This document shows, piece by piece, positions 25,355-58,184 of a stretch of 64,000 bases of DNA. Numbering within the stretch: position 1 is the first letter of the stretch; each line of letters starts with the position of its first letter. The notes under the pieces were generated by a model. That model worked only from the letters and a program-made list of their open reading frames with translations, had not been told where the DNA came from and made no database searches. The translations under genes were made by a program, and so were the position numbers. Where the stretch lies: positions 24,382-88,381 of the forward strand of contig DAOUHF010000131.1 of assembly GCA_034428795.1 (NCBI GenBank), given 5' to 3'. The stretch comes from Dehalococcoidia bacterium (GTDB lineage Bacteria > Chloroflexota > Dehalococcoidia > Lucifugimonadales > UBA3495).

Positions 25355-28300
25355 GTGTATATTTCGTATATGCCCACATATCCACATATCGAACGCTACC
25401 ACGCCGACAAGCAGCGGTTTATTGAGTTCGGCGGCTCTGACCAAGAGCAGAGCATACGGCGCGCTTTTGCCGTTTGCCTCGACTCCTATTGCCGCGAACA
25501 CCGGGAAAAGCTGGCCTTGGTGGACGAGTTGGAAGCCCGGCTCCACAACCGCCCCGACGGCACGGTGAAAGACTCCCTCCGTATGGACCGGGGCCACTGG
25601 GAGGCCAAAGACACCCACGACGACCTGGACGCCGAAATTCAGCACAAGTTCAACCGGGGCTACCCCCAAGACAACATCCTCTTTGAAGACTCGCAGACCG
25701 CGGTCTTGATTCAGAACCGGGAAGAGGCGATGCGGGCCGACATGTCCCGCCCTGGTGATCTCCACCGGCTCATACGCGCCTTCCTGGACTACGAGCTGCC
25801 TCAAATCGAGGAGTTCCGCCAAGCGCAGCAGCAATTCAAAGCCGACCTGCCGGCCGTCATCAGCAATCTGCGGGAGGCGGTCGAAGCGGCGGAAGCGAGC
25901 AACCCCGATTACCAGGCGGCCGCCGCCGATTTCCTGGAGCTATGCCAGCAGACCATCAGCCCCGCCGTATCCGCCGGGGACATCCGGGAGATGCTGCTGC
26001 AACACGTCCTGACCCAAGACATCTTCCTGCGGGTGTTCGCCGAGGACCAGTTCCACCGAGAAAACAACGTCGCCCGCCGGCTCGACGCCCTGGAGCAGAC
26101 CTTTTTCACCGGCGACCTGCGCCGGAACGCCGTCGACCGCCTCCGCTTTTACTACGGGGCCATCGGCCGGGCCGCCGACGAGATTGCCGACTACGCCGAG
26201 AAACAGCAATTCCTGAAGGCCATCTACGAAGACTTCTACAAGGCCTACAACCCCGCCGCCGCCGACCGCTTGGGGGTAGTCTACACCCCCAACGAGATCG
26301 TGGACTTCATCATCCGCGGCGCGGACTACCTGCTGCAAAAACACTTCGGCCGGAGCCTGGCCGACGACAACGTGCAGATTCTCGACCCGGCAACCGGCAC
26401 CGGCACGTTTGTCACCAACCTGATCAACTACTTGCCAGAAGACCGTTTGGAGCACAAGTACCGGAAGGAGATACACGCCAACGAAGTGGCGATTCTCCCC
26501 TACTACATCGCCAACCTCAACATCGAATACACCTACCGCGAGAAGATGGGGCGGTACCTGGAGTTCCCCAACCTGTGCTTCGTGGACACGCTGGACAACA
26601 TGGACTGGCAGCAGGCCGGCGCCACCGGCGGCGCCGTCCAGCGGCAGGGGGCCATGAACCTGGGCGGCCTCTCCGAAGAAAACTGGATTCGCATCCAGGA
26701 GCAGAACGAAAAGACCATCAGCGTCATCATTGGCAACCCGCCGTACAACGCCAATCAACAGAACGAAAACGATAACAACAAGAACCGCGAATACCCGGCC
26801 ATAGACCGTCGCATCAGCGAGACCTACATCGCCGCCAGCACGGCGCAGAAGACCAAACAGTACGACATGTACAAGCGGTTTATCCGGTGGGCATCCGACA
26901 GGCTGGCCGACGACGGGATTATCGGGTTCATCACCAATCGCGCGTATATAGATGCAAAGCAGGACGACGGGTTTAGACAAGTTGCCGCCAAGGAGTTTAC
27001 TGACATCTATATCTTGGACTTGGGCTCGGATGTACGCCGCAATCCCAAGATTTCGGGGACGATGCACAACGTCTTCGGCATCCAAACGGGGGTAGCAATC
27101 TGCTTCTTCGTGCGTAGCGGTACCAAACCCCGCGACTGCACAATTAGCTACGCTCTACGCGAGGACAGCGAGCTTGCGACGGATAAACTCGCCTATTTGC
27201 GACAGGCCTGCTTGGACGATATTCCTTTTGAAAACATCACGCCCGACCAGAAAAACAACTGGCTCAACCAGTCCAATAGCGACTTCAACCGGCTGCTTCC
27301 CTTGGCCAACAAGGAGACCAAACTTTCCAAGACTGCTGATGCCGAGCAGGCGGTCTTTAGCCTCTATTCAATGGGTGTTGTCACTAATCGTGACGAATGG
27401 ACTTACGCTTTTGATGAGAATACGGTTTCTGATAGAGTCTATTTCTTTTGCAGAACTTATCGGGACGAAATGCACCGATTTGCGACTGAGAAACCCGACC
27501 CTGGTTCAATCGGCGATTGGGTGGACAGGTCTATCAAATGGACTTCGGAATTGGAGATCCATTTGCTGAAAGGGGATGCCCTTGATTTCACGACTACGAG
27601 CATAGTCCCCGCGTTACACAGGCCATTTGTCGCCAAGTATTGCTACTATGCCCCCATCATCACCCATCGCAGGTATCAGCAGCCACAGATTTTCCCGCAC
27701 GGGGTCGACGCCCGGAACAAAGTGCTCTGTTTTACCGCCGCAGGCTCCAATAGAGATTTTCACGTATTAGCCGCCGCCAAACTCGTTGACCTCCATCTTA
27801 CCGGCGACACCCAATGCCTCCCCCTCTATCGCTACACGGCGGAGGGCGAGCGCATCAGCAACATCACCGAATGGGGTATCCGGCTTATCAACGAACACTA
27901 CCGCAAGGAGTGGGGCAAGGACTTCGACGGCATCTATCCGGACACGGGCATCACTGCCGAGCACATTTTCGCCTACACCTACGCGGTGCTCCACGACCCG
28001 GTTTACCGCTACGATTACGCCGTCGACCTGTTGCGCGAGTTCCCCCGCCTTCCCCTCTACCACGACTTCGACATCTGGGCGCGGATGGGCCAGAAGCTGC
28101 TCGACTTGCACATCGGTTTCGAGTCCGCCGAACCGTACTCCCTTCAGCGGAACGACCAGGCTGGCGCCCCAACTCGAGTGATTCTGCGCCCCGACAAGGA
28201 ACGCGGCGTCATCGTGCTGGACGACAAGACCACGCTGAGCGGAGTGCCGCCCGACGCCTGGCGCTACCGGTTGGGCAGCCGCTCGGCCCTGGAATGGGTG

Positions 28301-28606
28301 CTCGACCAATACAAGGAGCGCAAGCCGAAGGACCCGACCATCGCCGAGAAGTTCAACACCTACCGCTTCGCCGACTATAAGGAGCGCGTAATCGACCTGC
28401 TGCAACGGGTCTGCACCGTCAGCGTCCAGACGATGGACGTGGTGGACGATATGGCCTATTGGGAAGGCGACAACCTGATAGTATTCGGCGACCGGGACAA
28501 GCATGAATTGGCTATGCTGGCCCTTGCCGACTGGGCTAGCCGAGATGAGAAAGAGGACGAAGAATGGTTGGCCGGTTGGGTTGAGGAATGGTCGGAGACA
28601 TCGTAA
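25355..28606 (+). CDS. Single-polypeptide type IIG / type ISP-like restriction-modification enzyme (N6-adenine methyltransferase with an N-terminal PD-(D/E)xK-like motif)
   Basis: 1083 aa. SAM motif ILDPATGTGTF, catalytic GNPPYNANQ, ISP-type C-terminal region (YDMYKRFIRWASDRL..GFITNRAYID, ALEWVLDQYK). N-terminal ...RPDGTVKD...GHWEAKD..DDLDAEIQHKFNRGYP. Start is GTG 25355 or ATG 25370. Confidence 0.75.
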   Translation: MYISYMPTYPHIERYHADKQRFIEFGGSDQEQSIRRAFAVCLDSYCREHREKLALVDELEARLHNRPDGTVKDSLRMDRGHWEAKDTHDDLDAEIQHKFNRGYPQDNILFEDSQTAVLIQNREEAMRADMSRPGDLHRLIRAFLDYELPQIEEFRQAQQQFKADLPAVISNLREAVEAAEASNPDYQAAAADFLELCQQTISPAVSAGDIREMLLQHVLTQDIFLRVFAEDQFHRENNVARRLDALEQTFFTGDLRRNAVDRLRFYYGAIGRAADEIADYAEKQQFLKAIYEDFYKAYNPAAADRLGVVYTPNEIVDFIIRGADYLLQKHFGRSLADDNVQILDPATGTGTFVTNLINYLPEDRLEHKYRKEIHANEVAILPYYIANLNIEYTYREKMGRYLEFPNLCFVDTLDNMDWQQAGATGGAVQRQGAMNLGGLSEENWIRIQEQNEKTISVIIGNPPYNANQQNENDNNKNREYPAIDRRISETYIAASTAQKTKQYDMYKRFIRWASDRLADDGIIGFITNRAYIDAKQDDGFRQVAAKEFTDIYILDLGSDVRRNPKISGTMHNVFGIQTGVAICFFVRSGTKPRDCTISYALREDSELATDKLAYLRQACLDDIPFENITPDQKNNWLNQSNSDFNRLLPLANKETKLSKTADAEQAVFSLYSMGVVTNRDEWTYAFDENTVSDRVYFFCRTYRDEMHRFATEKPDPGSIGDWVDRSIKWTSELEIHLLKGDALDFTTTSIVPALHRPFVAKYCYYAPIITHRRYQQPQIFPHGVDARNKVLCFTAAGSNRDFHVLAAAKLVDLHLTGDTQCLPLYRYTAEGERISNITEWGIRLINEHYRKEWGKDFDGIYPDTGITAEHIFAYTYAVLHDPVYRYDYAVDLLREFPRLPLYHDFDIWARMGQKLLDLHIGFESAEPYSLQRNDQAGAPTRVILRPDKERGVIVLDDKTTLSGVPPDAWRYRLGSRSALEWVLDQYKERKPKDPTIAEKFNTYRFADYKERVIDLLQRVCTVSVQTMDVVDDMAYWEGDNLIVFGDRDKHELAMLALADWASRDEKEDEEWLAGWVEEWSETS

Positions 28607-33242: not shown

Positions 33243-34028
33243 CTAGCTCCGTCGCCGGCCCGCTTGGTACCAGTAGTCCGTGGGCTGCGGCGGCGCCGGT
33301 CTGCCGGATCGCGGACCCACCTTACTGTACACAGCCATCAAAACCAACCCGGCGACGAACCCGCCGATGTGGGCGAAAAAGGCCACGCTAACGCCTTGTG
33401 GGACCCCCAGGGACGCCAGGCCCTGGAACCCCTGCCAAACAAACCAGCCTCCCAGGAGCCACCAGGCCCGCATCTCCACCACCGTAATCAGGTAGAAAAT
33501 AATCAAGGCCCTGATGCGGTTGAAGGGGTAGGCCAGGAGGTAGGCTCCCAACACGCCGGAAACGGCGCCGCTGGCTCCCACCATGGGGACCTCCGAGTGG
33601 GGGTCGATGGCCAGTTGGGACAGGGCCGCCGCGGCCCCGGTAGCCAGATAGAACAGCAGGAACTTCAGGCGGCCCCACCGGTGTTCGATATTGTCCCCGA
33701 ACACCCACAGAAACATCATGTTGCCAGCCAAATGAAAGAAGCCGCCGTGGATGAACATGGAGGAGACAATGGTGGCCCAGGTCGGCAGCGGCGTCTCGAT
33801 GACGTACGGTCCAGCGTGGGTGAAGGACTTCCCGGCGGCCAGCTCCTCGGGGATGAAGCCAAACTTCAAGTAGAAGAGGTGAATATCCATACCCCCGCCG
33901 CCGGTCAGCACTCCGAGCCCGCCGAGTTGCAACTCGTACAGAAAGACGAGGCAATTGAGGCCGATTAGCCCCATGGTGACTACGGGCAGGGTCGGATGGC
34001 GCGGACCGGCGTCGGCGAAGGGTATCAA
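33243..34028 (-). CDS. Rhomboid-family intramembrane serine protease
   Basis: Polytopic, with GASGAVSGVLGAY (catalytic Ser) and HIGGFVAG (catalytic His). Confidence 0.85.
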   Translation of the reverse strand: MIPFADAGPRHPTLPVVTMGLIGLNCLVFLYELQLGGLGVLTGGGGMDIHLFYLKFGFIPEELAAGKSFTHAGPYVIETPLPTWATIVSSMFIHGGFFHLAGNMMFLWVFGDNIEHRWGRLKFLLFYLATGAAAALSQLAIDPHSEVPMVGASGAVSGVLGAYLLAYPFNRIRALIIFYLITVVEMRAWWLLGGWFVWQGFQGLASLGVPQGVSVAFFAHIGGFVAGLVLMAVYSKVGPRSGRPAPPQPTDYWYQAGRRRS

Positions 34029-34074
34029 CGCCTGCTCACCCGGTCCGCCACTCGCAGGACGACGGGAAGGCGTC

Positions 34075-34116
34075 CGAAAAACAACAAATGCGCCACCCTG
34101 AGATGGCGGCGCATTT
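34075..34116 (-). terminator. Rho-independent terminator candidate after the kinase-like gene
   Basis: On the minus strand: AAATGCGCCGCCAT-ctcag-GGTGGCGCATTT followed by GTTGTTTTT. Confidence 0.55.
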
Positions 34117-34139
34117 GAGAAAGGCGGGGTGACTACCGG

Positions 34140-34841
34140 TCAAGAAAGCAGGTCGCCGGCGGCGTGGGCGATCACCTCGGCCGCCGCTTCCGGCTGCATT
34201 AAGCCCATGTTCAGGACCATGTGGTACCGGTCCGGGTCGTTGGGGTTGAACTTGAAGAATTTGCGGAAGAATTCCTCCCGCGCCCGTTCCAACTCGACGA
34301 CGACGTCCTCGGCCTCGGACTTGGCGTAATGCTCCCTCTGCATGAGAGTGCTGACCCTCACTTCCGCCGGGGCCAGCAGCCCTACGTGCATTACGTCCGG
34401 GGCATCGGCCAGGATTGCGTTGGCGCCGCGGCCGATGATCACCGCGTTCCCCGCCTTGTGGAGGTCGTTCACCACCGTGTTCATCGCTTCGATGAAGGTC
34501 TTGTCGTCGATGGAGGGGATGGAACTGCTGCTCTGGTTGACCATATCCAGGTAAGTCTCGGGAGGAAGATTCTCGATCCCCCTGCCGAAGTAGGGCTCTC
34601 CGCTGACACCGGACATGGCGGAGCGCTCCAACATCGTTTGCAAGAACCTCCCCAAGCGGTCCCGCAACCTGTCGACCCGCTGTTCCTTGGCGATCAGCGC
34701 ACCGACCGGAGTACCGATGATTCGGGCCGCCTGAGTGAAAATCAGGCGGTCGACGAAGTCCATTTCCAGCTTTTTGGCCACCAGTTGGCCGATGATAACG
34801 GCGCCGCAACCCAAGGGGCCGTTGACGGTTATGATTGCCAT
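34140..34841 (-). CDS. Cytidylate kinase-like family protein (P-loop)
   Basis: MAIITVNGPLGCGAVIIGQLVAKKLEMDFVDRLIFTQAA resembles the Cytidylate_kin2 pattern (ITISR..GSGG..IG..LA..LG..Y.D). Confidence 0.55.
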   Translation of the reverse strand: MAIITVNGPLGCGAVIIGQLVAKKLEMDFVDRLIFTQAARIIGTPVGALIAKEQRVDRLRDRLGRFLQTMLERSAMSGVSGEPYFGRGIENLPPETYLDMVNQSSSSIPSIDDKTFIEAMNTVVNDLHKAGNAVIIGRGANAILADAPDVMHVGLLAPAEVRVSTLMQREHYAKSEAEDVVVELERAREEFFRKFFKFNPNDPDRYHMVLNMGLMQPEAAAEVIAHAAGDLLS

Positions 34842-51639: not shown

Positions 51640-51711
51640 CCGCTCCCGCCGCTGTGCTGCCCCGGGATTATAATACCCGTGTAACCCGAATGAGGCCGTG
51701 GGAGTCGGGAT

Positions 51712-53043
51712 ATGGACAGTATTACACTTCAGAACTATCGGTGCTTTAGAGAAGAGCAGACGGCCCGCCTAGCCCCGTTGACGCTTCTTGTGGGCGAGAA
51801 CAGCACGGGAAAGACATCTTTCCTGGCATTGGTCCGGGCCCTATGGGATATCGCGTTCCAGAATAATGTTCCGAACTTTCAGGAAGAGCCATATAACCTT
51901 GGGGCCTTCCGGGACATCACCCACAAGCGTAGCAGTCCGGGCGGTCAAGCTGATTCGTTTGAAGCGGGGTTTGAATACCACCGTCCTCAGCGTGCCCGCA
52001 ATAGAAGACTAGAAGGGGTTTCGTTCCGGGCGACATTTGAGGACCGGAGAGGGTCCCCTTTTCCGGTGACAAGAAGCCTTTACCGTAGGGACGCTTGGCT
52101 GGAGGCCCACGATAAAGAAGACGGAGGGCATTTGCTGCGCTTCGGTACGGGGAAAAGCAACGAGGAATACTCAGCTGAGTCGAACATACTCTCACGAGAC
52201 GATGATAATTTGGTCTCCTTTAGACAAATGTTTTGGGATATCAACCGTGGCAGCAGATCAGATGAGCCGTCTACACCGAACGAGAAAGAGATAGAGGACT
52301 TAGTCTCCAGTCTCAGTATTCCACCTTCGAATCTTGTCCGGGAGCGTCCGTTCGCCAGCGCGCCGGTGCGTACCCGCCCCCGGCGGACATACGACCCAAC
52401 GCGGCCTTCGCGGGATCCCGAAGGAGAGTACATCCCCACCTACCTTGCCAGCGAGTTTCATCGCGGCCAAAAAAGCTGGAAGGAGTTGAAAAGCGCTCTT
52501 GAACAGTTTGGCCAAAATTCCGGGCTGTTCGACGAGATCAACGTCAAGTCCTTGGGCAAGACCGAGGGTACGCCGTTCCAATTGGAAGTCCGAAAGTTTG
52601 GCAAGAGAACGAAAGGACCCCCAAGAAACCTGATCGACGTAGGATACGGCGTGAGCCAGGCGTTGCCGATCCTGACCGAACTTTTGCGGCCTGATTCGTC
52701 CGCCATGTTCTTGTTGCAACAGCCGGAGGTCCATCTCCATCCTATGGCCCAGGCAGCCTTGGGCAGTCTGTTCTGCTCTATTGCTAGGCCAAACCGCCAA
52801 CTCATCGTCGAGACCCATAGCGACTATATTATCGACCGCGTTCGCATGGACATTCGAGATAAGAAGTCGCCACTCAAACCTGAGGACGTTTCCATCCTGT
52901 ACTTCGAGCCGGGAGAACTCGAAGTAAATATCCGTTCTATTCGCTTGGACGACATGGGCAATGTTTTGGATGCGCCGCCGGGTTACGGACAATTCTTCAT
53001 GGAAGAAGTAAGGCGCTCCGTCGGAATGGGTATCAGGGCCTGA
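51712..53043 (+). CDS. ABC/SMC-type AAA family ATPase (AAA_15/21, DUF3696-like C-terminus)
   Basis: Walker A LLVGENSTGKTSF, Walker B/D-loop MFLLQQPEVHLHP and H-loop VETHSDYIIDR. Visibly lower GC than the flanks. Confidence 0.75.
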   Translation: MDSITLQNYRCFREEQTARLAPLTLLVGENSTGKTSFLALVRALWDIAFQNNVPNFQEEPYNLGAFRDITHKRSSPGGQADSFEAGFEYHRPQRARNRRLEGVSFRATFEDRRGSPFPVTRSLYRRDAWLEAHDKEDGGHLLRFGTGKSNEEYSAESNILSRDDDNLVSFRQMFWDINRGSRSDEPSTPNEKEIEDLVSSLSIPPSNLVRERPFASAPVRTRPRRTYDPTRPSRDPEGEYIPTYLASEFHRGQKSWKELKSALEQFGQNSGLFDEINVKSLGKTEGTPFQLEVRKFGKRTKGPPRNLIDVGYGVSQALPILTELLRPDSSAMFLLQQPEVHLHPMAQAALGSLFCSIARPNRQLIVETHSDYIIDRVRMDIRDKKSPLKPEDVSILYFEPGELEVNIRSIRLDDMGNVLDAPPGYGQFFMEEVRRSVGMGIRA

Positions 53044-53511
53044 ATGTGCGCAATTATAGACAATAACGTGCGGCACGAAGTTTTTGGGGAGAATCCGACG
53101 GAAGCGGGGAATTTCTTTCTCGTATGGCTGGACCGCAAAGGGCAGTTAGTCGTTGGAGGCAAACTCCTACAAGAACTCCTGGGTTATCGGCGTTTCGAAA
53201 TGTGGCTTCGTGTGGCATCAAGACTAGGCCGTGCCATTCGCATTGCCGATGAAACCGTAGACACCGATGCCCAATCTCTACGCGATGATGGGATTTGCCG
53301 GTCGAACGATGAACATGTCCTCGCTTTGGCCAGAGTCAGCGGAGCCCGTCTGCTTTTCACCAACGACGGTTATTTGCAGGGGGACTTCAAGAATCCTGAG
53401 ATAATCGATGGTGTCCGTGGGAGGGTATACACTACTCAACTATCTAAAGACGTTCGCCGTGCACATAGAGACCTGCTGAATCGTAACGATCTTTGCGCGG
53501 CCCGTGGCTAA
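53044..53511 (+). CDS. PIN-like domain protein (putative nuclease)
   Basis: 155 aa. MCAIIDNNV (first Asp), LLQEL and SNDEHVLALARVSGARLLFTNDGYLQGDF (PIN-like D..lA.A...a.LvT.D.dF). The ATG directly follows the ATPase TGA. Confidence 0.5.
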   Translation: MCAIIDNNVRHEVFGENPTEAGNFFLVWLDRKGQLVVGGKLLQELLGYRRFEMWLRVASRLGRAIRIADETVDTDAQSLRDDGICRSNDEHVLALARVSGARLLFTNDGYLQGDFKNPEIIDGVRGRVYTTQLSKDVRRAHRDLLNRNDLCAARG

Positions 53512-53536
53512 AATTGACATTAACAGGAGGAGCCGC

Positions 53537-54466
53537 ATGACTACCGCCAGGATTCCTACCGAGGGGCAGATCATTGAATGGTTTGACACCCTGAGCAACT
53601 GGGGCCGTTGGGGGGCCGACGACCAGCTTGGAACCCTTAACCTGATTACCGACGCCAAGCGGGCCCAGGCAGCCAGCCTGGTGAGGGAGGGCATCAGCGT
53701 CACCTGTTCCCGCTTGATCGTTCCGGAAATCGCGGCCGACGTGACCTCCATTCCTCCGCTGCATTACATGGTTCGGGCCGGGGACAGTTGCCCCGACGAA
53801 GGCCCGGGCGGGACTTCCGACTTCATCGGGCTGTCGTACCACGGCCTCACGGTCACCCACATCGACAGCCTGTGTCACCAGGTATGGAACGGCAGGATGT
53901 ACAACGGGCGCCCCGCCTCCGACGTGAGCTCCGATACCAAGGCCAACAGCCTCGATATCGATAAAGCCCAGAACGGGATCGTCACCCGGGGCGTGTTGTT
54001 GGACATCGCCAAGGTCAAGGGCAAGCCTTGGCTGGAGGCTGGCGAGGGCGTCTTTACCGAAGACCTGGAAGCCGCCGAAGAAGCCCAGGGCGTCCGTGTG
54101 GAGGAAGGAGACGCCCTGATGCTGCGGTTGGGCTGGTACAAACGCCGGCTGGAACTGGGCCCGCCGCAATCGGGCCGCCCCGGCCTGCACGCCGAGACCA
54201 TCCCCTGGTTGAGAGAGCGGGGAGTTTCCCTGGTGGGCGGCGACGCCTCCCAGGACGTCGAACCCAGCGGTTATCCCAGCATCGGCCTGCCGTTGCACCA
54301 GGTCGGAATTGTCGGCATGGGCCTGTGGCTCATCGACGCCGGCAACTGCGAGGAACTGGTACAGGTGTGCGAACGGCTGGGCCGCTGGGAGTTCATGTTC
54401 AACGTAGCGCCCCTGCGGTTCAAGAACGCCACCGGCTCCCCGGTCAACCCCCTGGCGATTTTCTAG
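53537..54466 (+). CDS. Cyclase-family protein (kynurenine formamidase-like)
   Basis: WGADDQLGTLNLIT and YHGLTVTHIDSLCH. ATG 53537 has AGGAGG upstream. Confidence 0.75.
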   Translation: MTTARIPTEGQIIEWFDTLSNWGRWGADDQLGTLNLITDAKRAQAASLVREGISVTCSRLIVPEIAADVTSIPPLHYMVRAGDSCPDEGPGGTSDFIGLSYHGLTVTHIDSLCHQVWNGRMYNGRPASDVSSDTKANSLDIDKAQNGIVTRGVLLDIAKVKGKPWLEAGEGVFTEDLEAAEEAQGVRVEEGDALMLRLGWYKRRLELGPPQSGRPGLHAETIPWLRERGVSLVGGDASQDVEPSGYPSIGLPLHQVGIVGMGLWLIDAGNCEELVQVCERLGRWEFMFNVAPLRFKNATGSPVNPLAIF

Positions 54467-55875: not shown

Positions 55876-55911
55876 AACACGGCCACCGGGACCGGTGGCC
55901 GTGTTCGTTTT
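55876..55911 (+). terminator. Rho-independent terminator candidate (bidirectional position)
   Basis: AACACGGCCACCGG-GA-CCGGTGGCCGTGTT (about a 13-bp stem) followed by CGTTTTA. It lies between the convergent SDR and peroxiredoxin genes. Confidence 0.6.
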
Positions 55912-55938: not shown

Positions 55939-56403
55939 TCAGGTTACGTCGTCCATCGCAGCGAGAATCGAATCGACGTCGGGCAGCACGCCGGGCACGT
56001 AAGTCTCCCGGAACCGTATGACGCCATTTGTGTCCACCACGAGCACTGCGCGGTTGCTGGCGCCGCGCTCTTCGTTCCAGAGGTCGTAGTCGGTGCTGAC
56101 TTTCCCCTTGGGGTGCCAGTCGGACAGCTCCGGATAGGGCAGGCCGCCCATGGCGGTGGCCCAAGCCCTGTGGGAGTGAACGTGGTCGCAACTGATGCCC
56201 AGTACCTGGGCATTCTTCTCTTCGAACCGGCCGATGGCCTGGCGGAAGGAAGTGGCCTGGCTGGTTCAACCAGACGTGAAATCGAACACGTGGAACGACA
56301 GGACCACATGCTTCTCGCCCCGGTAGCTGCTCAATGTAATGTCGCCTTCACTCACGGACGGAAGAGTGAAATCAGGCGCAACGTCGCCGACATCTGCTGG
56401 CAT
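55939..56403 (-). CDS. Peroxiredoxin (AhpC/TSA family), candidate selenoprotein (in-frame TGA at 56266-56268)
   Basis: Reading from ATG 56403 gives MPADVGDVAPDFTLPSVSEGDITLSSYRGEKHVVLSFHVFDFTSG-TGA-TSQATSFRQAIGRFEEKNAQVLGISCDHVHSHRAWA..., continuing in-frame into track ORF 55939..56151. The TGA replaces the peroxidatic Cys (T-x-x-C). Confidence 0.75.
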
Positions 56404-56588
56404 GTCTCCTCCTTAGTAACTGGTAATAAACGCACCCGGCCGCCGTGCGGCCAAGCGGGGCTAGTATACCTTCAACGCTCCATTGGTGGCTACGGCGGGG
56501 CAACCTCGAGCCCGTATTAGCAACGGGGAATAGCACTAAAAACCCTACGATGCGGGCAAAGTTCGGAAGAAATAGCGGCGGCTTTCCG

Positions 56589-57209
56589 TTAACCCATCGC
56601 CCGCCGCGCCAAGTCCGGCGGCGTTGCGAAGCGCGGGTTAGCCATGGGCTGGCCGGGGGCCGGGGGTTCCAGGAAGGTTACGCTTTCGTAGAAATCGTCG
56701 AGGGCGACGAACGTACCATGCTCCTCGGCCCATTCCCGCATCCGGCGGTTGCAGCTATGCCGCCATGACAACACCTCGATTCGCCATCCCCGGTTGCGCA
56801 TACGCTCCAAGTCGGCGTGAAAGCCGACGCCGTCGGCAAAGCCGCTGCCGTCGCCTGTGAGCAGGACGGCCGTTCCCGGGTTGCCATTGTAGTCGAAGGC
56901 GTCGCGCAGCATCGCTGTCTGTAACGCTTGGTCCACGCCTTGCTCCTGGCCCTGCAATGCGCCGCGCTCAAGTAACTGGACCGTGAACCCTTCGTTCTCC
57001 AGCCGGTTCCACACGTGCCGCAACTCTGGCGGGATGGAGCCAACGGCGATGGCATGCTCAATCTCTCGCCCGGCGCACGCAAGGTCTAGCAAGTGGCGGA
57101 AGTGAAGACGCACCCGGTAGCGGGCCGCATCGCCCTCACGCTCCGCCGCAACCTGCTGCGCGCCGATGAAGATGTTGGAGTTGTCCCAGTAGACAAACAC
57201 TTTGGCCAT
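56589..57209 (-). CDS. NYN (LabA/DUF88-like) domain protein
   Basis: MAKVFVYWDNSNIFIGA... and ...AVLLTGDGSGFADGV... Confidence 0.65.
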   Translation of the reverse strand: MAKVFVYWDNSNIFIGAQQVAAEREGDAARYRVRLHFRHLLDLACAGREIEHAIAVGSIPPELRHVWNRLENEGFTVQLLERGALQGQEQGVDQALQTAMLRDAFDYNGNPGTAVLLTGDGSGFADGVGFHADLERMRNRGWRIEVLSWRHSCNRRMREWAEEHGTFVALDDFYESVTFLEPPAPGQPMANPRFATPPDLARRAMG

Positions 57210-57416: not shown

Positions 57417-58184
57417 TTAGATCAGCGCGTCCGGGGTTTGGATGCCGTCCAGATCGGTTTCGGTGGCCGGGTCGTTCAGCGTCATGCCTAGGTCGGTCTG
57501 CATGTAGTGGTAGACCTGCTTCAGGTGGTGGGTGCTGTGGCTGAGGACGATGTTCAGCAACTCCAGCACTGTGACCTCACCGCCGTAATGGGCCGGGACC
57601 TCGCGTTCGAAGCCGGCAGTATTGCCGCTGTTCAGGAAAGCGATGATGCCGTCGCGGACCTTCAGTCCATACTCGGCGATGGCCGGGCCAGCGACCACTC
57701 CCTTCAGCCGCTCGTCCTGCGCGCTCATATCATCCCAACTCATGCTGCCCACTTCGTGCGAGAGGTAGGCGATTTCGGGGAACGCCAGGATGTGCACCAC
57801 CGTGTCGCGCAGGCTCCAAGGCCGCCACGGTACGATGGCGTCCAACTGCTCTTGGGTGAACTGGTTGTTGGCCCGCACGGCGGCGCTCATCACGATGCCA
57901 TACTTTTCGGCCAGCCAGGACGTTTTGCCCGAGAGATCGACGGTGACGTCAAGCTTGAGGGCCGGAATCAGCTTCTTGGGGTAGTAGCCGATGATGACCT
58001 CGGCGTCGTCTATGATGGTCACCGGCAGCGACTTGATGCCGCGGCTGCGGAGATGCTCCACGGCGGCGGGTTCGCTCAGCAGATCGTGGTGCTCGTATGG
58101 AACGCCATTGGACTTGAGGAACTCTTCCAGAGTCCGGCAACTGAATCAACCAGGCTGGGTGTAGACCTGGACGTCCATGACCAT
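57417..58184 (-). CDS. Glutaredoxin-like / DinB-domain fusion protein, candidate selenoprotein (in-frame TGA at 58146-58148)
   Basis: From ATG 58184 (AAGGAGG upstream) the frame reads MVMDVQVYTQPG-TGA-FSCRTLEEFLKSNGVPYEHHDLLSEPAAVEHLRSRGIKSLPVTIIDDAEVIIGYYP..., in frame with track ORF 57417..58061. The C-terminal half is DinB-like (...LLNIVLSHSTHHLKQV). Confidence 0.7.

What the first reader, a model, noticed from the sequence alone, without database searches (positions are those of the whole stretch)
55939..56403. Peroxiredoxin with TGA replacing the peroxidatic cysteine
Reading from ATG 56403, a complete ~154-codon AhpC/TSA-type peroxiredoxin is obtained only if TGA 56266-56268 is decoded (…VVLSFHVFDFTSG-U-TSQATSF…GISCDHVHSHRAW…). 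The track lists only the C-terminal 70 aa. The TGA sits exactly where the T-x-x-C peroxidatic Cys lies.

Downstream, the mRNA is GC-rich and can pair (GCC-A-GGCC AUC GGCC GGU, about 22 nt after UGA). I could not define a convincing SECIS by eye.
Basis: partly seen in the sequence, partly recalled or inferred. Interest (0 to 1): 0.6.

Follow-up and report, generated by a model that had tools for sequence, protein, structure and literature searches.

The report
Selenocysteine peroxiredoxin gene, mis-called as truncated
This is a genuine gene for a small peroxide-destroying enzyme whose catalytic residue is selenocysteine encoded by an in-frame UGA; the kind is well known but gene callers routinely truncate it, and a second selenoprotein gene lies 1 kb away.

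Summary
On the minus strand, ATG 56403 to stop 55939 is one 154-codon AhpC/TSA peroxiredoxin (Pfam E 7.5e-35) interrupted only by TGA 56268-56266. That codon aligns with the peroxidatic Cys45 of M. tuberculosis AhpE.

- All 80 related genomic loci (mostly Dehalococcoidia MAGs, 70-98% identity) plus one metagenome contig carry TGA at this codon. True Cys (TGC) homologs also exist.
- Both halves evolve as coding sequence in one frame.
- TGA is an ordinary stop elsewhere in the window.
- A 38-nt hairpin starts 13 nt after the UGA (56252-56215, -16.3 kcal/mol). It is conserved, shows compensatory changes and constrains synonymous sites.
- The window's version fails one criterion of the published bacterial SECIS consensus (no G in the loop). 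That consensus also proved non-discriminating in this genome.

The window holds no selA/B/D or tRNA-Sec. It does hold a second TGA-containing gene, a glutaredoxin-DinB fusion with a UxxC motif (57417-58184), whose TGA is also conserved in relatives. This supports Sec decoding in this genome.

Sec-peroxiredoxins (TxxU) are an established, abundant family. This is an AhpE-type member with Val replacing the active-site Pro and an invariant Cys72. Ordinary but real.

The parts
55939..56403 (-). Complete coding sequence of the selenocysteine peroxiredoxin (154 codons including Sec46; stop TGA 55941-55939)
   Evidence: sequence and translation; Pfam AhpC-TSA E 7.5e-35, Redoxin E 1.1e-14; closest solved structure M. 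tuberculosis AhpE, E 1e-28; third-position divergence 0.50 before and 0.46 after the TGA, against 0.10-0.18 at positions 1 and 2; all 82 orthologs start at the aligned ATG and have no other stop.
56266..56268 (-). UGA codon 46, read as selenocysteine, at the peroxidatic position (FDFTSG-U-TSQ)
   Evidence: TGA in 80 of 80 genomic loci and in L083. TGC in Cys homologs L082 and L084-L086. Aligns with AhpE Cys45. Terminal stops of the same 82 genes vary (TAG 51, TAA 16, TGA 15), whereas the internal codon is TGA in 82 of 82.
56215..56252 (-). Hairpin 1, the proposed bacterial SECIS. It has 15 bp, starts 13 nt after the UGA, and is CUUCCUUC-C-GCC-A-GGCC-[AUC]-GGCC-GGU-UC-GAAG-A-GAAG
   Evidence: MFE -16.3 kcal/mol. 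The 81-nt context gives z = -3.58 against shuffles. Across the family the upper stem is 93% paired, with compensatory G-C to C-G (5 sequences) and C-G to U-A (11 sequences), and 0 of 500 shuffles reach the covariation score. Synonymous-recoding z = -2.3. Third-position divergence falls to 0.28 against 0.51 elsewhere.
56194..56213 (-). Hairpin 2: AUGCCCAG-GUA-CUGGGCAU, 8 bp, directly 3' of hairpin 1. Its role is unknown, and it is not Sec-specific
   Evidence: 99.5% paired in 76 distinct sequences, with only wobble changes. Recoding z = -1.95. Third-position divergence 0.27. It is also present in Cys forms L082 and L085, the latter with a G-C to A-U double change.
56188..56190 (-). Codon 72, TGC. 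Cys72 (GISCD) is the only cysteine in the protein and is invariant
   Evidence: Cys in 82 of 82 orthologs, and the sole Cys in 79 of 82. AhpE has Val at this position (alignment).
56408..56413 (-). Shine-Dalgarno AGGAGG, 4 nt before the ATG
   Evidence: Read directly. An SD-like motif lies within 20 nt upstream in 67 of 81 orthologs.
56463..56492 (-). Sigma-70-like promoter match (TAGCCA-18-TATACT). Consensus match only
   Evidence: 1 found against 0.3 expected in shuffles. Not tested further.
55876..55905 (.). Terminator-like hairpin: 13 bp with a T-tail as called on the + strand, a shorter 5-bp call on the − strand. It lies between the peroxiredoxin and the convergent short-chain dehydrogenase gene
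   Evidence: sequence (ACGGCCACCGGTCCCGGTGGCCGT followed by GTTGTGTCTT on the minus strand).
57417..58184 (-). Second selenoprotein gene in the window: a glutaredoxin-DinB_2 fusion of 255 codons, with in-frame TGA 58148-58146 (codon 13) in VYTQPG-U-FSC (UxxC). Its own hairpin lies at about 58135-58110, 11 nt after the UGA
   Evidence: sequence, SD AAGGAGGGG. (Pfam Glutaredoxin E 1.4e-8 for residues 5-60, DinB_2 E 1.6e-8). (nearly all homologs called as 214-237 aa fragments that start after the TGA). (TGA at the same codon in L087, L088 and L089 at 81, 74 and 67% identity, with a conserved hairpin whose loops GAG, AGUU, GAA and GAGU fit the bSECIS consensus).

Best explanation
The locus is one intact, monocistronic gene for a 154-residue AhpE-type peroxiredoxin whose peroxidatic residue is selenocysteine.

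**Proposed mechanism**
1. The ribosome starts at ATG 56403 and reaches UGA at codon 46.
2. At that point the mRNA hairpin beginning 13 nt downstream (56252-56215) sits at the ribosome entrance.
3. The hairpin recruits SelB-GTP-Sec-tRNA(Sec), so Sec is inserted instead of termination.
4. Translation continues to the true stop at 55941-55939.
5. In the enzyme, the selenolate of U46 sits in the first turn of helix alpha-2 next to Thr43 and Arg118. It attacks the peroxide O-O bond to give a selenenic acid.
6. A thiol partner then reduces the selenenic acid.

**What is shown:** gene integrity; family and fold; exact placement of the UGA on the catalytic position; conservation of the UGA; Sec/Cys pairing; conservation and covariation of the hairpin; normal use of TGA as a stop elsewhere.

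**What is inferred:** that the hairpin is the SelB-binding SECIS; that the genome carries selA, selB, selC and selD; the identity of the reductant; and any role of the invariant Cys72.
For: - **Family and position.** Pfam AhpC-TSA E 7.5e-35. AhpE is the best PDB match by sequence (E 1e-28), with the TGA aligned to Cys45. It is also the best match by fold, using an AF2 model of the Cys homolog P0006 (pLDDT 93; TM 0.93-0.94, rmsd 1.3-1.6 A).
- **Conservation.** The scan found relatives in 349 species genomes. All of the best 80 have TGA at this codon.
- **Artefact explained.** Database proteins with 'W' at this position are table-4 mistranslations of TGA.
- **Sec/Cys pairing.** True TGC homologs exist.
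- **Selection.** Purifying selection acts in one frame on both sides of the TGA.
- **Active site.** H38, V39, T43, C72 and R118 are invariant. Internal TGA is 82 of 82, while terminal stops vary.
- **Genetic code.** TGA is a normal stop in 13 of 37 window genes.
- **Hairpin.** z = -3.58; recoding z = -2.3; compensatory pairs and 0 of 500 shuffles; MFE -16.3 kcal/mol; 30 nt from the UGA to the loop. Two of the four Cys forms examined have lost it.
- **Second selenoprotein gene.** A UxxC glutaredoxin-DinB gene in the same window has a conserved TGA and a consensus-type SECIS.
- **Literature.** Prx TxxU is an established selenoprotein family (PMC1794560, PMC2398784, PMC13188914). Dehalococcoidia MAGs carry 46-49 selenoprotein genes (PMC13326102).
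Against: - No selA, selB, selD or tRNA-Sec in the 64-kb window or in the 60 related loci scanned for tRNAs. The machinery is therefore not shown for this genome.
- The window's hairpin has an AUC triloop and so fails the 'G in the first two loop positions' criterion. Only 43 of 76 family sequences meet all four bSECIS criteria, against 41% of arbitrary in-frame positions. The consensus match carries little weight either way.
- The family-register fold is unfavourable in the window (-5.3 against -16.3 kcal/mol). The window, L002 and L003 therefore carry a derived apical structure.
- Two of the four Cys homologs retain a hairpin at the same place, and only four Cys forms were examined.
- The coding constraint on FR...RFEE contributes to the apparent conservation of the stem.
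- No Rfam family matches.
- There is no experimental evidence of selenium incorporation.
Confidence: 0.9

Rival explanations
1. Pseudogene or sequencing error: a peroxiredoxin gene inactivated by a nonsense mutation at the catalytic Cys codon (TGC/TGT to TGA).
For: A single-base change from TGC or TGT gives TGA. Gene callers treat the locus as truncated.
Against: TGA is at the identical codon in 82 of 82 orthologs from different species at 70-98% identity. There are no other stops or frameshifts, and the start ATG is conserved. Third-position divergence of 0.46-0.50 against 0.10-0.18 at positions 1 and 2, on both sides of the TGA, shows ongoing purifying selection.
Confidence: 0.01
2. Genome-wide reassignment of UGA to Trp or Gly (genetic code 4 or 25), so the residue is not Sec.
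For: Several database entries show W at this position.
Against: Those W entries are TGA in the DNA. TGA terminates 13 of 37 well-supported window genes, including this one, and 15 of 82 orthologs. Trp or Gly at the peroxidatic position would abolish catalysis, yet every other catalytic residue is invariant. The genome is 62% GC and is Dehalococcoidia-like, not a known code-4 or code-25 lineage.
Confidence: 0.01
3. SelB-independent read-through or termination-reinitiation: UGA is suppressed at low level by a near-cognate tRNA (giving Cys, Trp or Arg), or two separate polypeptides are made, and the hairpin acts only as a pausing element.
For: The window's hairpin lacks the canonical loop G. Hairpins also occur in some Cys forms. 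Sec machinery was not observed directly.
Against: An enzyme whose catalytic residue depends on inefficient miscoding would not be held at TGA in 82 of 82 species while TGC homologs exist one mutation away. No conserved start codon or SD follows the TGA: database fragments start at different places and run 87-104 aa. The Prx fold needs both halves. A second gene in the window shows the same TGA-at-redox-Cys pattern with a consensus SECIS. The lineage is documented as selenoprotein-rich (PMC13326102).
Confidence: 0.05
4. The SECIS is not hairpin 1 alone. The functional element is hairpin 2 (56213-56194), or a bipartite unit of hairpins 1 and 2.
For: Hairpin 2 is the most conserved structure: 99.5% paired, recoding z = -1.95, third-position divergence 0.27. 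It abuts hairpin 1 with a 1-nt spacer. RNAalifold recovers only hairpin 2.
Against: Its loop lies about 60 nt from the UGA, outside the 16-37 nt range of known bSECIS elements (PMC13188914). It shows no double compensatory change among the Sec forms. It persists in Cys forms L082 and L085. It encodes the invariant NAQVLGI peptide, so much of its conservation is at the protein level.
Confidence: 0.12

Closest known systems
Bacterial Sec-containing peroxiredoxin family ('Prx', Pfam PF00578, TxxU motif; Zhang et al. 2006 PMC1794560; GOS selenoproteome PMC2398784; review PMC13188914)
   Same: AhpC/TSA domain. Sec encoded by in-frame UGA exactly at the peroxidatic position in a T-x-x-U motif. Cys-containing homologs exist. 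A stem-loop lies within the coding region just downstream of the UGA. Common in marine and environmental bacteria.
   Different: This clade lacks the Pro of the PxxxTxxU motif (Val39 is invariant, preceded by His38). It has an invariant Cys72. Its distribution is centred on Dehalococcoidia/Chloroflexota MAGs. Whether this particular clade is already listed in BSepDB could not be checked.
PrxU of Eubacterium acidaminophilum (Sohling et al. 2001, cited in PMC13188914; NCBIfam NF040737 peroxi_PrxU)
   Same: The only biochemically characterised Sec-peroxiredoxin. Sec replaces the peroxidatic Cys.
   Different: Not the same subfamily. The window protein scores 65.5 bits against a 270-bit cutoff for NF040737. 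It is about 80 residues shorter than that 233-position model and is closest to AhpE instead.
Mycobacterium tuberculosis AhpE (Rv2238c; PDB 1XXU, 1XVW), a 1-Cys peroxiredoxin
   Same: Same length (153-154 aa). About 36% identity for the Cys homolog P0006 that was modelled. Best sequence match (E 1e-28) and best fold match (TM 0.93-0.94). The catalytic residue is at the same position. The conserved Thr and Arg are present.
   Different: AhpE uses Cys, has the canonical Pro (FFPLAFTGIC), and has Val where this family has Cys72. AhpE is recycled by the mycoredoxin/mycothiol system (the basis here is the database name 'mycoredoxin-dependent peroxiredoxin' and the mycothiol-exposed AhpE entry 5ID2). 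Whether that system exists in this lineage was not examined.
Consensus bacterial SECIS model (bSECISearch; criteria as given in PMC13188914)
   Same: A stem-loop in the coding sequence. In the window, 30 nt from the UGA to the apical loop, a 3-nt loop, an upper stem of at least 4 bp, and MFE -16.3 kcal/mol. In most relatives, a 9-nt loop beginning AGG or AGU, 25 nt from the UGA.
   Different: The window's loop (AUC) has no G in its first two positions. Several relatives (loops AAC.., AAU.., CUU..) also fail this criterion.

Membership tests
Peroxiredoxin (AhpC/TSA, PF00578) | Significant match to the family profile over its full length | tested here: met
   120 bits against a cutoff of 26, E 7.5e-35, profile positions 1-123 of 124 (U replaced by C for the search).
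Peroxiredoxin (AhpC/TSA, PF00578) | Thioredoxin-like Prx fold with the catalytic residue in the first turn of helix alpha-2 | tested here: met
   AF2 model of the 69%-identical Cys homolog P0006: pLDDT 93, helix 43-54 with Cys45. TM 0.93-0.94 to AhpE crystal structures. The window protein itself was not modelled.
Peroxiredoxin (AhpC/TSA, PF00578) | Active-site motif PxxxTxxC: Thr and the peroxidatic residue | tested here: met
   T43-S-G-U46 aligns with AhpE T-G-I-C45. T43 is invariant in 82 of 82.
Peroxiredoxin (AhpC/TSA, PF00578) | Active-site motif PxxxTxxC: the conserved Pro | tested here: not met
   The position aligned to the AhpE Pro is Val39, invariant in 82 of 82. Cys homologs of the clade also have FHVF/VHIF. 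This is a clade-specific deviation.
Peroxiredoxin (AhpC/TSA, PF00578) | Conserved catalytic Arg | tested here: met
   R118 (NRAV) aligns with the AhpE Arg in NRGT and is invariant in 82 of 82. The PDB entry 4XIH is an R116A AhpE mutant, consistent with this residue's role.
Sec-containing Prx selenoprotein family (TxxU) | In-frame UGA aligned with the catalytic Cys of Cys-containing homologs (a Sec/Cys pair) | tested here: met
   TGC in P0006, P0012, P0013 and P0026, and Cys45 in AhpE, at the TGA column.
Sec-containing Prx selenoprotein family (TxxU) | UGA conserved in orthologs from other organisms, with coding conservation on both sides | tested here: met
   82 of 82 TGA. The codon-position divergence pattern is the same on both sides.
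Sec-containing Prx selenoprotein family (TxxU) | Stem-loop (bSECIS) immediately downstream of the UGA | tested here: met
   A conserved, covarying hairpin 13-14 nt after the UGA. See the separate rows below for the consensus criteria.
Sec-containing Prx selenoprotein family (TxxU) | Host genome encodes SelA, SelB, SelD and tRNA-Sec | not testable with these tools
   None in the window or in the flanks of relatives. Indirect support comes from a second conserved UGA-containing redox gene in the window and from Dehalococcoidia MAGs with 46-49 selenoproteins (PMC13326102).
Sec-containing Prx selenoprotein family (TxxU) | Selenium actually incorporated at the UGA position | not testable with these tools
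   Requires 75Se labelling or mass spectrometry.
PrxU equivalog (NCBIfam NF040737) | Score above the curated equivalog cutoff | tested here: not met
   65.5 bits against a cutoff of 270. No NCBIfam equivalog cutoff is reached by any model.
AhpE-type 1-Cys peroxiredoxin | Closest relationship by sequence and structure to AhpE; about 153 aa; no C-terminal extension | tested here: met
AhpE-type 1-Cys peroxiredoxin | Single redox-active residue (no resolving Cys) | tested here: inconclusive
   The protein has one further Cys (Cys72), invariant in 82 of 82 and absent from AhpE.
Consensus bacterial SECIS (criteria in PMC13188914) | Apical loop of 3-9 nt and upper stem of 4-16 bp | tested here: met
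   Window: loop AUC (3 nt); GGCC/GGCC stem of 4 bp, extended by 3 bp after a bulged A. Relatives: 9-nt or 7-nt loop with a 5-6 bp stem.
Consensus bacterial SECIS (criteria in PMC13188914) | G in one of the first two apical-loop positions | tested here: not met
   The window's loop is AUC. The alternative fold with loop AGGCCAUCG costs 11 kcal/mol. The criterion is met in 43 of 76 relatives, but 41% of random in-frame control positions also pass all the criteria.
Consensus bacterial SECIS (criteria in PMC13188914) | 16-37 nt between the UGA and the apical loop | tested here: met
   30 nt in the window and 25 nt in most relatives.
Consensus bacterial SECIS (criteria in PMC13188914) | MFE of -7.5 kcal/mol or lower | tested here: met
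   -16.3 kcal/mol for the 38-nt hairpin. The family mean is -16.0 for the 42-nt region.

The most novel reading that the evidence does not exclude
This AhpE-like clade may be a mechanistically distinct Sec-peroxiredoxin, for two reasons.

1. It has lost the otherwise near-universal active-site Pro (Val39 is invariant). It pairs Sec46 with a single invariant Cys72 at the end of strand beta-4. After peroxide reduction it could form an intramolecular selenenylsulfide, which would be an atypical '1-Sec/1-Cys' resolving mechanism not described for AhpE or PrxU.
2. Its Sec insertion may depend on an unusual two-hairpin element. Hairpin 1 tolerates register shifts and G-less loops. Hairpin 2 is nearly invariant and abuts it. 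This would extend the bacterial SECIS model.
Probability: 0.15. Interest if true: 0.45.

Novelty: new member of a known kind. Interest (0 to 1): 0.3.

Why it matters
- **Annotation.** The finding recovers a complete antioxidant enzyme that standard gene calling reduces to a 70-aa fragment. The public protein collections are full of 87-104 aa stubs of this family, and of table-4 'Trp' mistranslations of it.
- **Sec decoding.** Together with the neighbouring UxxC glutaredoxin-DinB gene, it marks this Dehalococcoidia-like genome as a Sec decoder. This matters for metabolic reconstruction and for selenium ecology in the marine, sponge and soil Chloroflexota where the family is common; it was found in 349 species genomes.
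- **Caution about the SECIS consensus.** The published bSECIS consensus passes 41% of arbitrary positions in a 62% GC genome. Conservation and covariation, not consensus matching, should carry the argument.
- **Limits.** It does not change any concept. Sec-peroxiredoxins have been known since 2001 and are among the most abundant marine selenoproteins.

Tried and rejected
- **Rfam, whole window at gathering thresholds:** no hit. Uninformative for a bacterial SECIS.
- **ARAGORN on the window and on 60 related loci:** no tRNA at all, so no tRNA-Sec nearby.
- **Pfam on 30 window genes:** no SelA, SelB or SelD. The region is housekeeping (rpoB, secA, P-type ATPase, H+-PPase, ATP sulfurylase and others).
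- **Formal bSECIS-consensus scan:** the window fails and 43 of 76 relatives pass, but the control rate is 41%, so I dropped it as a discriminating test.
- **RNAalifold on the ungapped alignment:** it recovered only hairpin 2, because the lower stem of hairpin 1 occurs in two registers. I tested explicit structures instead.
- **Cys-homolog control for hairpin 1:** only four sequences, with a mixed result (two lost it, one is degraded, one keeps it). Suggestive, not decisive.
- **Conserved-neighbour analysis across 80 loci:** no redox partner. In 68 of 80 loci the downstream neighbour is a convergent gene; L082 and L083 have a GreA/GreB-family gene in that position. In 50 of 80 the upstream neighbour is a divergent gene with a metallo-beta-lactamase-like HxHxDH motif read by eye. 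Neither cluster was run through Pfam.
- **L001:** I first took it for the source contig. It is a 94-97% identical relative with a different arrangement upstream of the gene.
- **Sec46-Cys72 distance:** I wanted to measure it in the AF2 model, but the coordinates are not exposed to the script environment.
- **Other TGA candidates:** two further same-frame TGA junctions from the window scan were rejected. One (33243-34841) is two adjacent genes that share a frame. The other (53408-54466) is an implausible 23-codon upstream extension of the cyclase gene.
Full report
**1. The observation**

- On the minus strand an AGGAGG Shine-Dalgarno (56413-56408) precedes ATG 56403.
- The frame is open for 154 codons to TGA 55941-55939, apart from one TGA at 56268-56266 (codon 46).
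- The mechanical ORF list holds only the 70-aa C-terminal remnant (55939-56151).
- With Cys substituted at codon 46, the product matches Pfam AhpC-TSA over the whole profile (E 7.5e-35).

**2. Position of the TGA**

- The best solved relative is M. tuberculosis AhpE, a 153-aa 1-Cys peroxiredoxin (E about 1e-28).
- In the ungapped alignment the TGA column is AhpE Cys45. Thr43 and Arg118 align with the AhpE catalytic Thr and Arg.
- An AlphaFold model of the 69%-identical true-Cys homolog P0006 has pLDDT 93. It superposes on AhpE crystal structures at TM 0.93-0.94 and rmsd 1.3-1.6 A.
- No NCBIfam equivalog cutoff is reached. The PrxU model scores 65.5 bits against a cutoff of 270. The protein is therefore an AhpE-type peroxiredoxin, not a PrxU-type one.

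**3. Comparative evidence that the TGA is decoded**

- A search of 5.8 billion proteins returned mostly fragments of 87-104 aa covering only the part after the TGA.
- The few 'full-length' entries carry either C or, oddly, W at the position. The W is an artefact: the DNA of P0003 has TGA there. P0006, P0012, P0013 and P0026 have genuine TGC.
- A scan of one genome per species found relatives in 349 genomes. The best 80 are nearly all Dehalococcoidia/Chloroflexota MAGs, plus one Entotheonellaceae and one labelled Proteobacteria.
- All 80 have TGA at exactly this codon.
- Across the 82 genes, every gene starts at the aligned ATG and none has another stop.
- Pairwise divergence by codon position is 0.15/0.11/0.51 before the TGA and 0.18/0.13/0.46 after it. 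Both halves are therefore translated in the same frame under purifying selection.
- The true terminal stops of these genes drift (TAG 51, TAA 16, TGA 15), while the internal codon is TGA in 82 of 82.
- TGA ends 13 of 37 robust genes in the window. That excludes a reassigned genetic code.

**4. The RNA element**

- The 81 nt from the UGA fold at -32.5 kcal/mol, z = -3.58.
- Per-sequence folds of 81 orthologs show a recurrent hairpin. Its lower stem is CCUC/GAGG-like, followed by a small internal loop, an upper stem CCGGC/GCCGG or CCGGUC/GACCGG, and a 7-9 nt loop.
- On the ungapped 84-column alignment (A2) the upper stem is 93% paired. It shows G-C to C-G changes in 5 sequences and C-G to U-A in 11.
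- None of 500 column shuffles reach the observed covariation score. All slid registers fall to 26-46% paired.
- The lower stem occurs in two registers that use different amino acids (Ser TCG against Leu CTC) yet both pair with the same 3' GAGG.
- Resampling synonymous codons gives mean z = -2.3 for this region.
- Third-position divergence drops to 0.28, against 0.51 in the rest of the gene.
- In the window, and in its closest relatives L002 and L003, the apical part is re-registered. It reads CUUCCUUC-C-GCC-A-GGCC-[AUC]-GGCC-GGU-UC-GAAG-A-GAAG at 56252-56215: 15 bp, -16.3 kcal/mol. The family register would cost 11 kcal/mol.
- Against the published bSECIS criteria (PMC13188914) the window meets loop size, stem length, spacing (30 nt) and energy. 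It fails the loop-G criterion.
- I do not weigh that failure heavily. 43 of 76 relatives pass all the criteria, but so do 41% of arbitrary in-frame positions in other window genes.
- Of four Cys-encoding homologs, two have lost the hairpin (-7 to -9 kcal/mol), one has a degraded version and one keeps a strong one.

**5. A second hairpin**

- AUGCCCAG-GUN-CUGGGCAU (56213-56194) directly follows hairpin 1.
- It is 99.5% paired, with only wobble changes.
- It also occurs in Cys forms and encodes the invariant NAQVLGI peptide.
- I treat it as unexplained and not Sec-specific.

**6. Sec machinery**

- The window has no tRNA gene and no Rfam hit.
- Pfam on 30 genes found no SelA, SelB or SelD. The flanks of relatives have no tRNA.
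- The rest of the genome cannot be reached with these tools.
- A scan for same-frame coding segments joined by one TGA revealed a second gene at 57417-58184 on the minus strand:
  - it has its own SD, an ATG at 58184 and a TGA at codon 13, in VYTQPG-U-FSC;
  - read through, it is a glutaredoxin (PF00462) plus DinB_2 fusion;
  - nearly all of its homologs are called as fragments that start after the TGA;
  - the DNA of relatives at 81, 74 and 67% identity has TGA at the same codon, with the 12 upstream codons conserved;
  - it has a conserved hairpin 11 nt downstream whose loops (GAG, AGUU, GAA, GAGU) fit the bSECIS consensus.
- Two independent genes with a conserved UGA at a redox-Cys position in one 64-kb window are strong indirect evidence that this organism decodes Sec.
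- BSepDB lists Dehalococcoidia MAGs with 46 and 49 selenoprotein genes among the ten richest bacteria (PMC13326102).

**7. Gene context**

- The gene stands alone.
- Upstream on the same strand are a NYN-domain gene (56589-57209) and then the Grx-DinB gene.
- A promoter-like match (56492-56463) and a hairpin (56457-56433) precede the SD.
- A terminator-like hairpin (55876-55905) lies between the gene and a convergent short-chain dehydrogenase gene.
- In most relatives the neighbours are different: a convergent downstream gene in 68 of 80 loci and, in 50 of 80, a divergent upstream gene with a metallo-beta-lactamase-like motif. None looks redox-related by eye.
- L001, a 94-97% identical relative, carries a restriction-modification and Rieske/molybdopterin island just upstream of the gene. 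The window lacks it.

**8. Mechanism**

- *Shown:* an intact AhpE-type Prx gene with UGA at the peroxidatic position, held there by selection, followed at the right distance by a conserved and covarying hairpin.
- *Inferred from the established bacterial Sec pathway:* SelB-GTP-Sec-tRNA(Sec) binds the hairpin while the ribosome holds UGA in the A site and inserts Sec. The selenolate of U46, positioned by Thr43 and Arg118, reduces peroxides and is recycled by a thiol reductant.
- *Open:* the reductant is unknown.
- *Clade-specific active site:* the canonical Pro is Val39 (with His38 before it), and Cys72, the only cysteine, is invariant. A Sec46-Cys72 selenenylsulfide is conceivable but untested.

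**9. Comparison and novelty**

- Sec-peroxiredoxins with a TxxU motif are an established family. PrxU was described in 2001. Zhang et al. 2006 list 12 members and 5 inferred Cys-to-Sec events (PMC1794560). The GOS survey has 253 sequences (PMC2398784).
- This gene is a new, previously mis-annotated member of that kind. It belongs to an AhpE-like clade widespread in Dehalococcoidia.
The finding is real but not surprising to a specialist.

Noticed in passing
window 57417-58184 (minus strand); TGA 58148-58146; hairpin about 58135-58110: A second selenoprotein gene: a glutaredoxin-DinB_2 fusion of 255 codons, with UGA at codon 13 in a UxxC motif (VYTQPG-U-FSC). The TGA and a consensus-type SECIS hairpin are conserved in relatives at 67-81% identity. 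Public gene calls start after the TGA and name it only 'DinB family protein'.
   Followed up: yes
window 56194-56213 (minus strand): A nearly invariant 8-bp hairpin, AUGCCCAG-GUA-CUGGGCAU, directly 3' of the proposed SECIS. Synonymous sites are constrained (third-position divergence 0.27). It is also present in Cys-encoding homologs, one of them with a G-C to A-U double change. Its function is unknown.
   Followed up: partly
window codons 38-39 (56292-56287) and codon 72 (56190-56188) of the peroxiredoxin: The near-universal Pro of the Prx PxxxTxxC motif is Val39, preceded by His38, in all 82 orthologs and in the clade's Cys forms. Cys72 (GISCD) is invariant and is the only cysteine. AhpE has Pro and Val at these two positions. 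The PDB happens to contain an engineered F37H AhpE mutant that mimics the His.
   Followed up: partly
public protein collections (P0001-P0004, P0009, P0010, P0017, P0019, P0020, P0227): Database proteins show Trp at the Sec position. For P0003 the DNA has TGA there. The likely cause is a gene caller that chose a TGA=Trp table on short contigs. The other entries are assumed to arise the same way, including P0227, the full-length homolog of the Grx-DinB gene. P0212, another Grx-DinB homolog, has Arg at the position; this was not checked.
   Followed up: partly
window 51657-53521 (genes 51712-53043 and 53044-53511, plus strand): An AAA_15/AAA_21 (AbiEii-like) ATPase gene plus a 155-aa ORF with no Pfam hit. 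Both have much lower GC3 (0.62 and 0.51) than their neighbours (about 0.8). The segment is absent from the 94-97% identical relative L001. It looks like a recently acquired, defence-like insertion.
   Followed up: no
L001 1353-9611 (the relative), against the window around 56520: Between the NYN gene and the peroxiredoxin, the relative carries an island with a restriction-modification system (N6_Mtase/Eco57I, Methylase_S), a Rieske protein, and a molybdopterin oxidoreductase called as two overlapping pieces (681 aa and 238 aa). The window lacks the island. The split molybdopterin gene might be a frameshift or another recoding site.
   Followed up: no
window 56433-56457 (minus strand): A GC-rich hairpin followed by a U-rich tail. 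It lies between the promoter-like site and the peroxiredoxin's Shine-Dalgarno. It could be the terminator of the upstream NYN gene or a 5'-leader structure.
   Followed up: no
window 25355-28606 (plus strand): A large Type ISP restriction-modification enzyme gene (Type_ISP_C, N6_Mtase, ISP_coupler, Eco57I domains).
   Followed up: no
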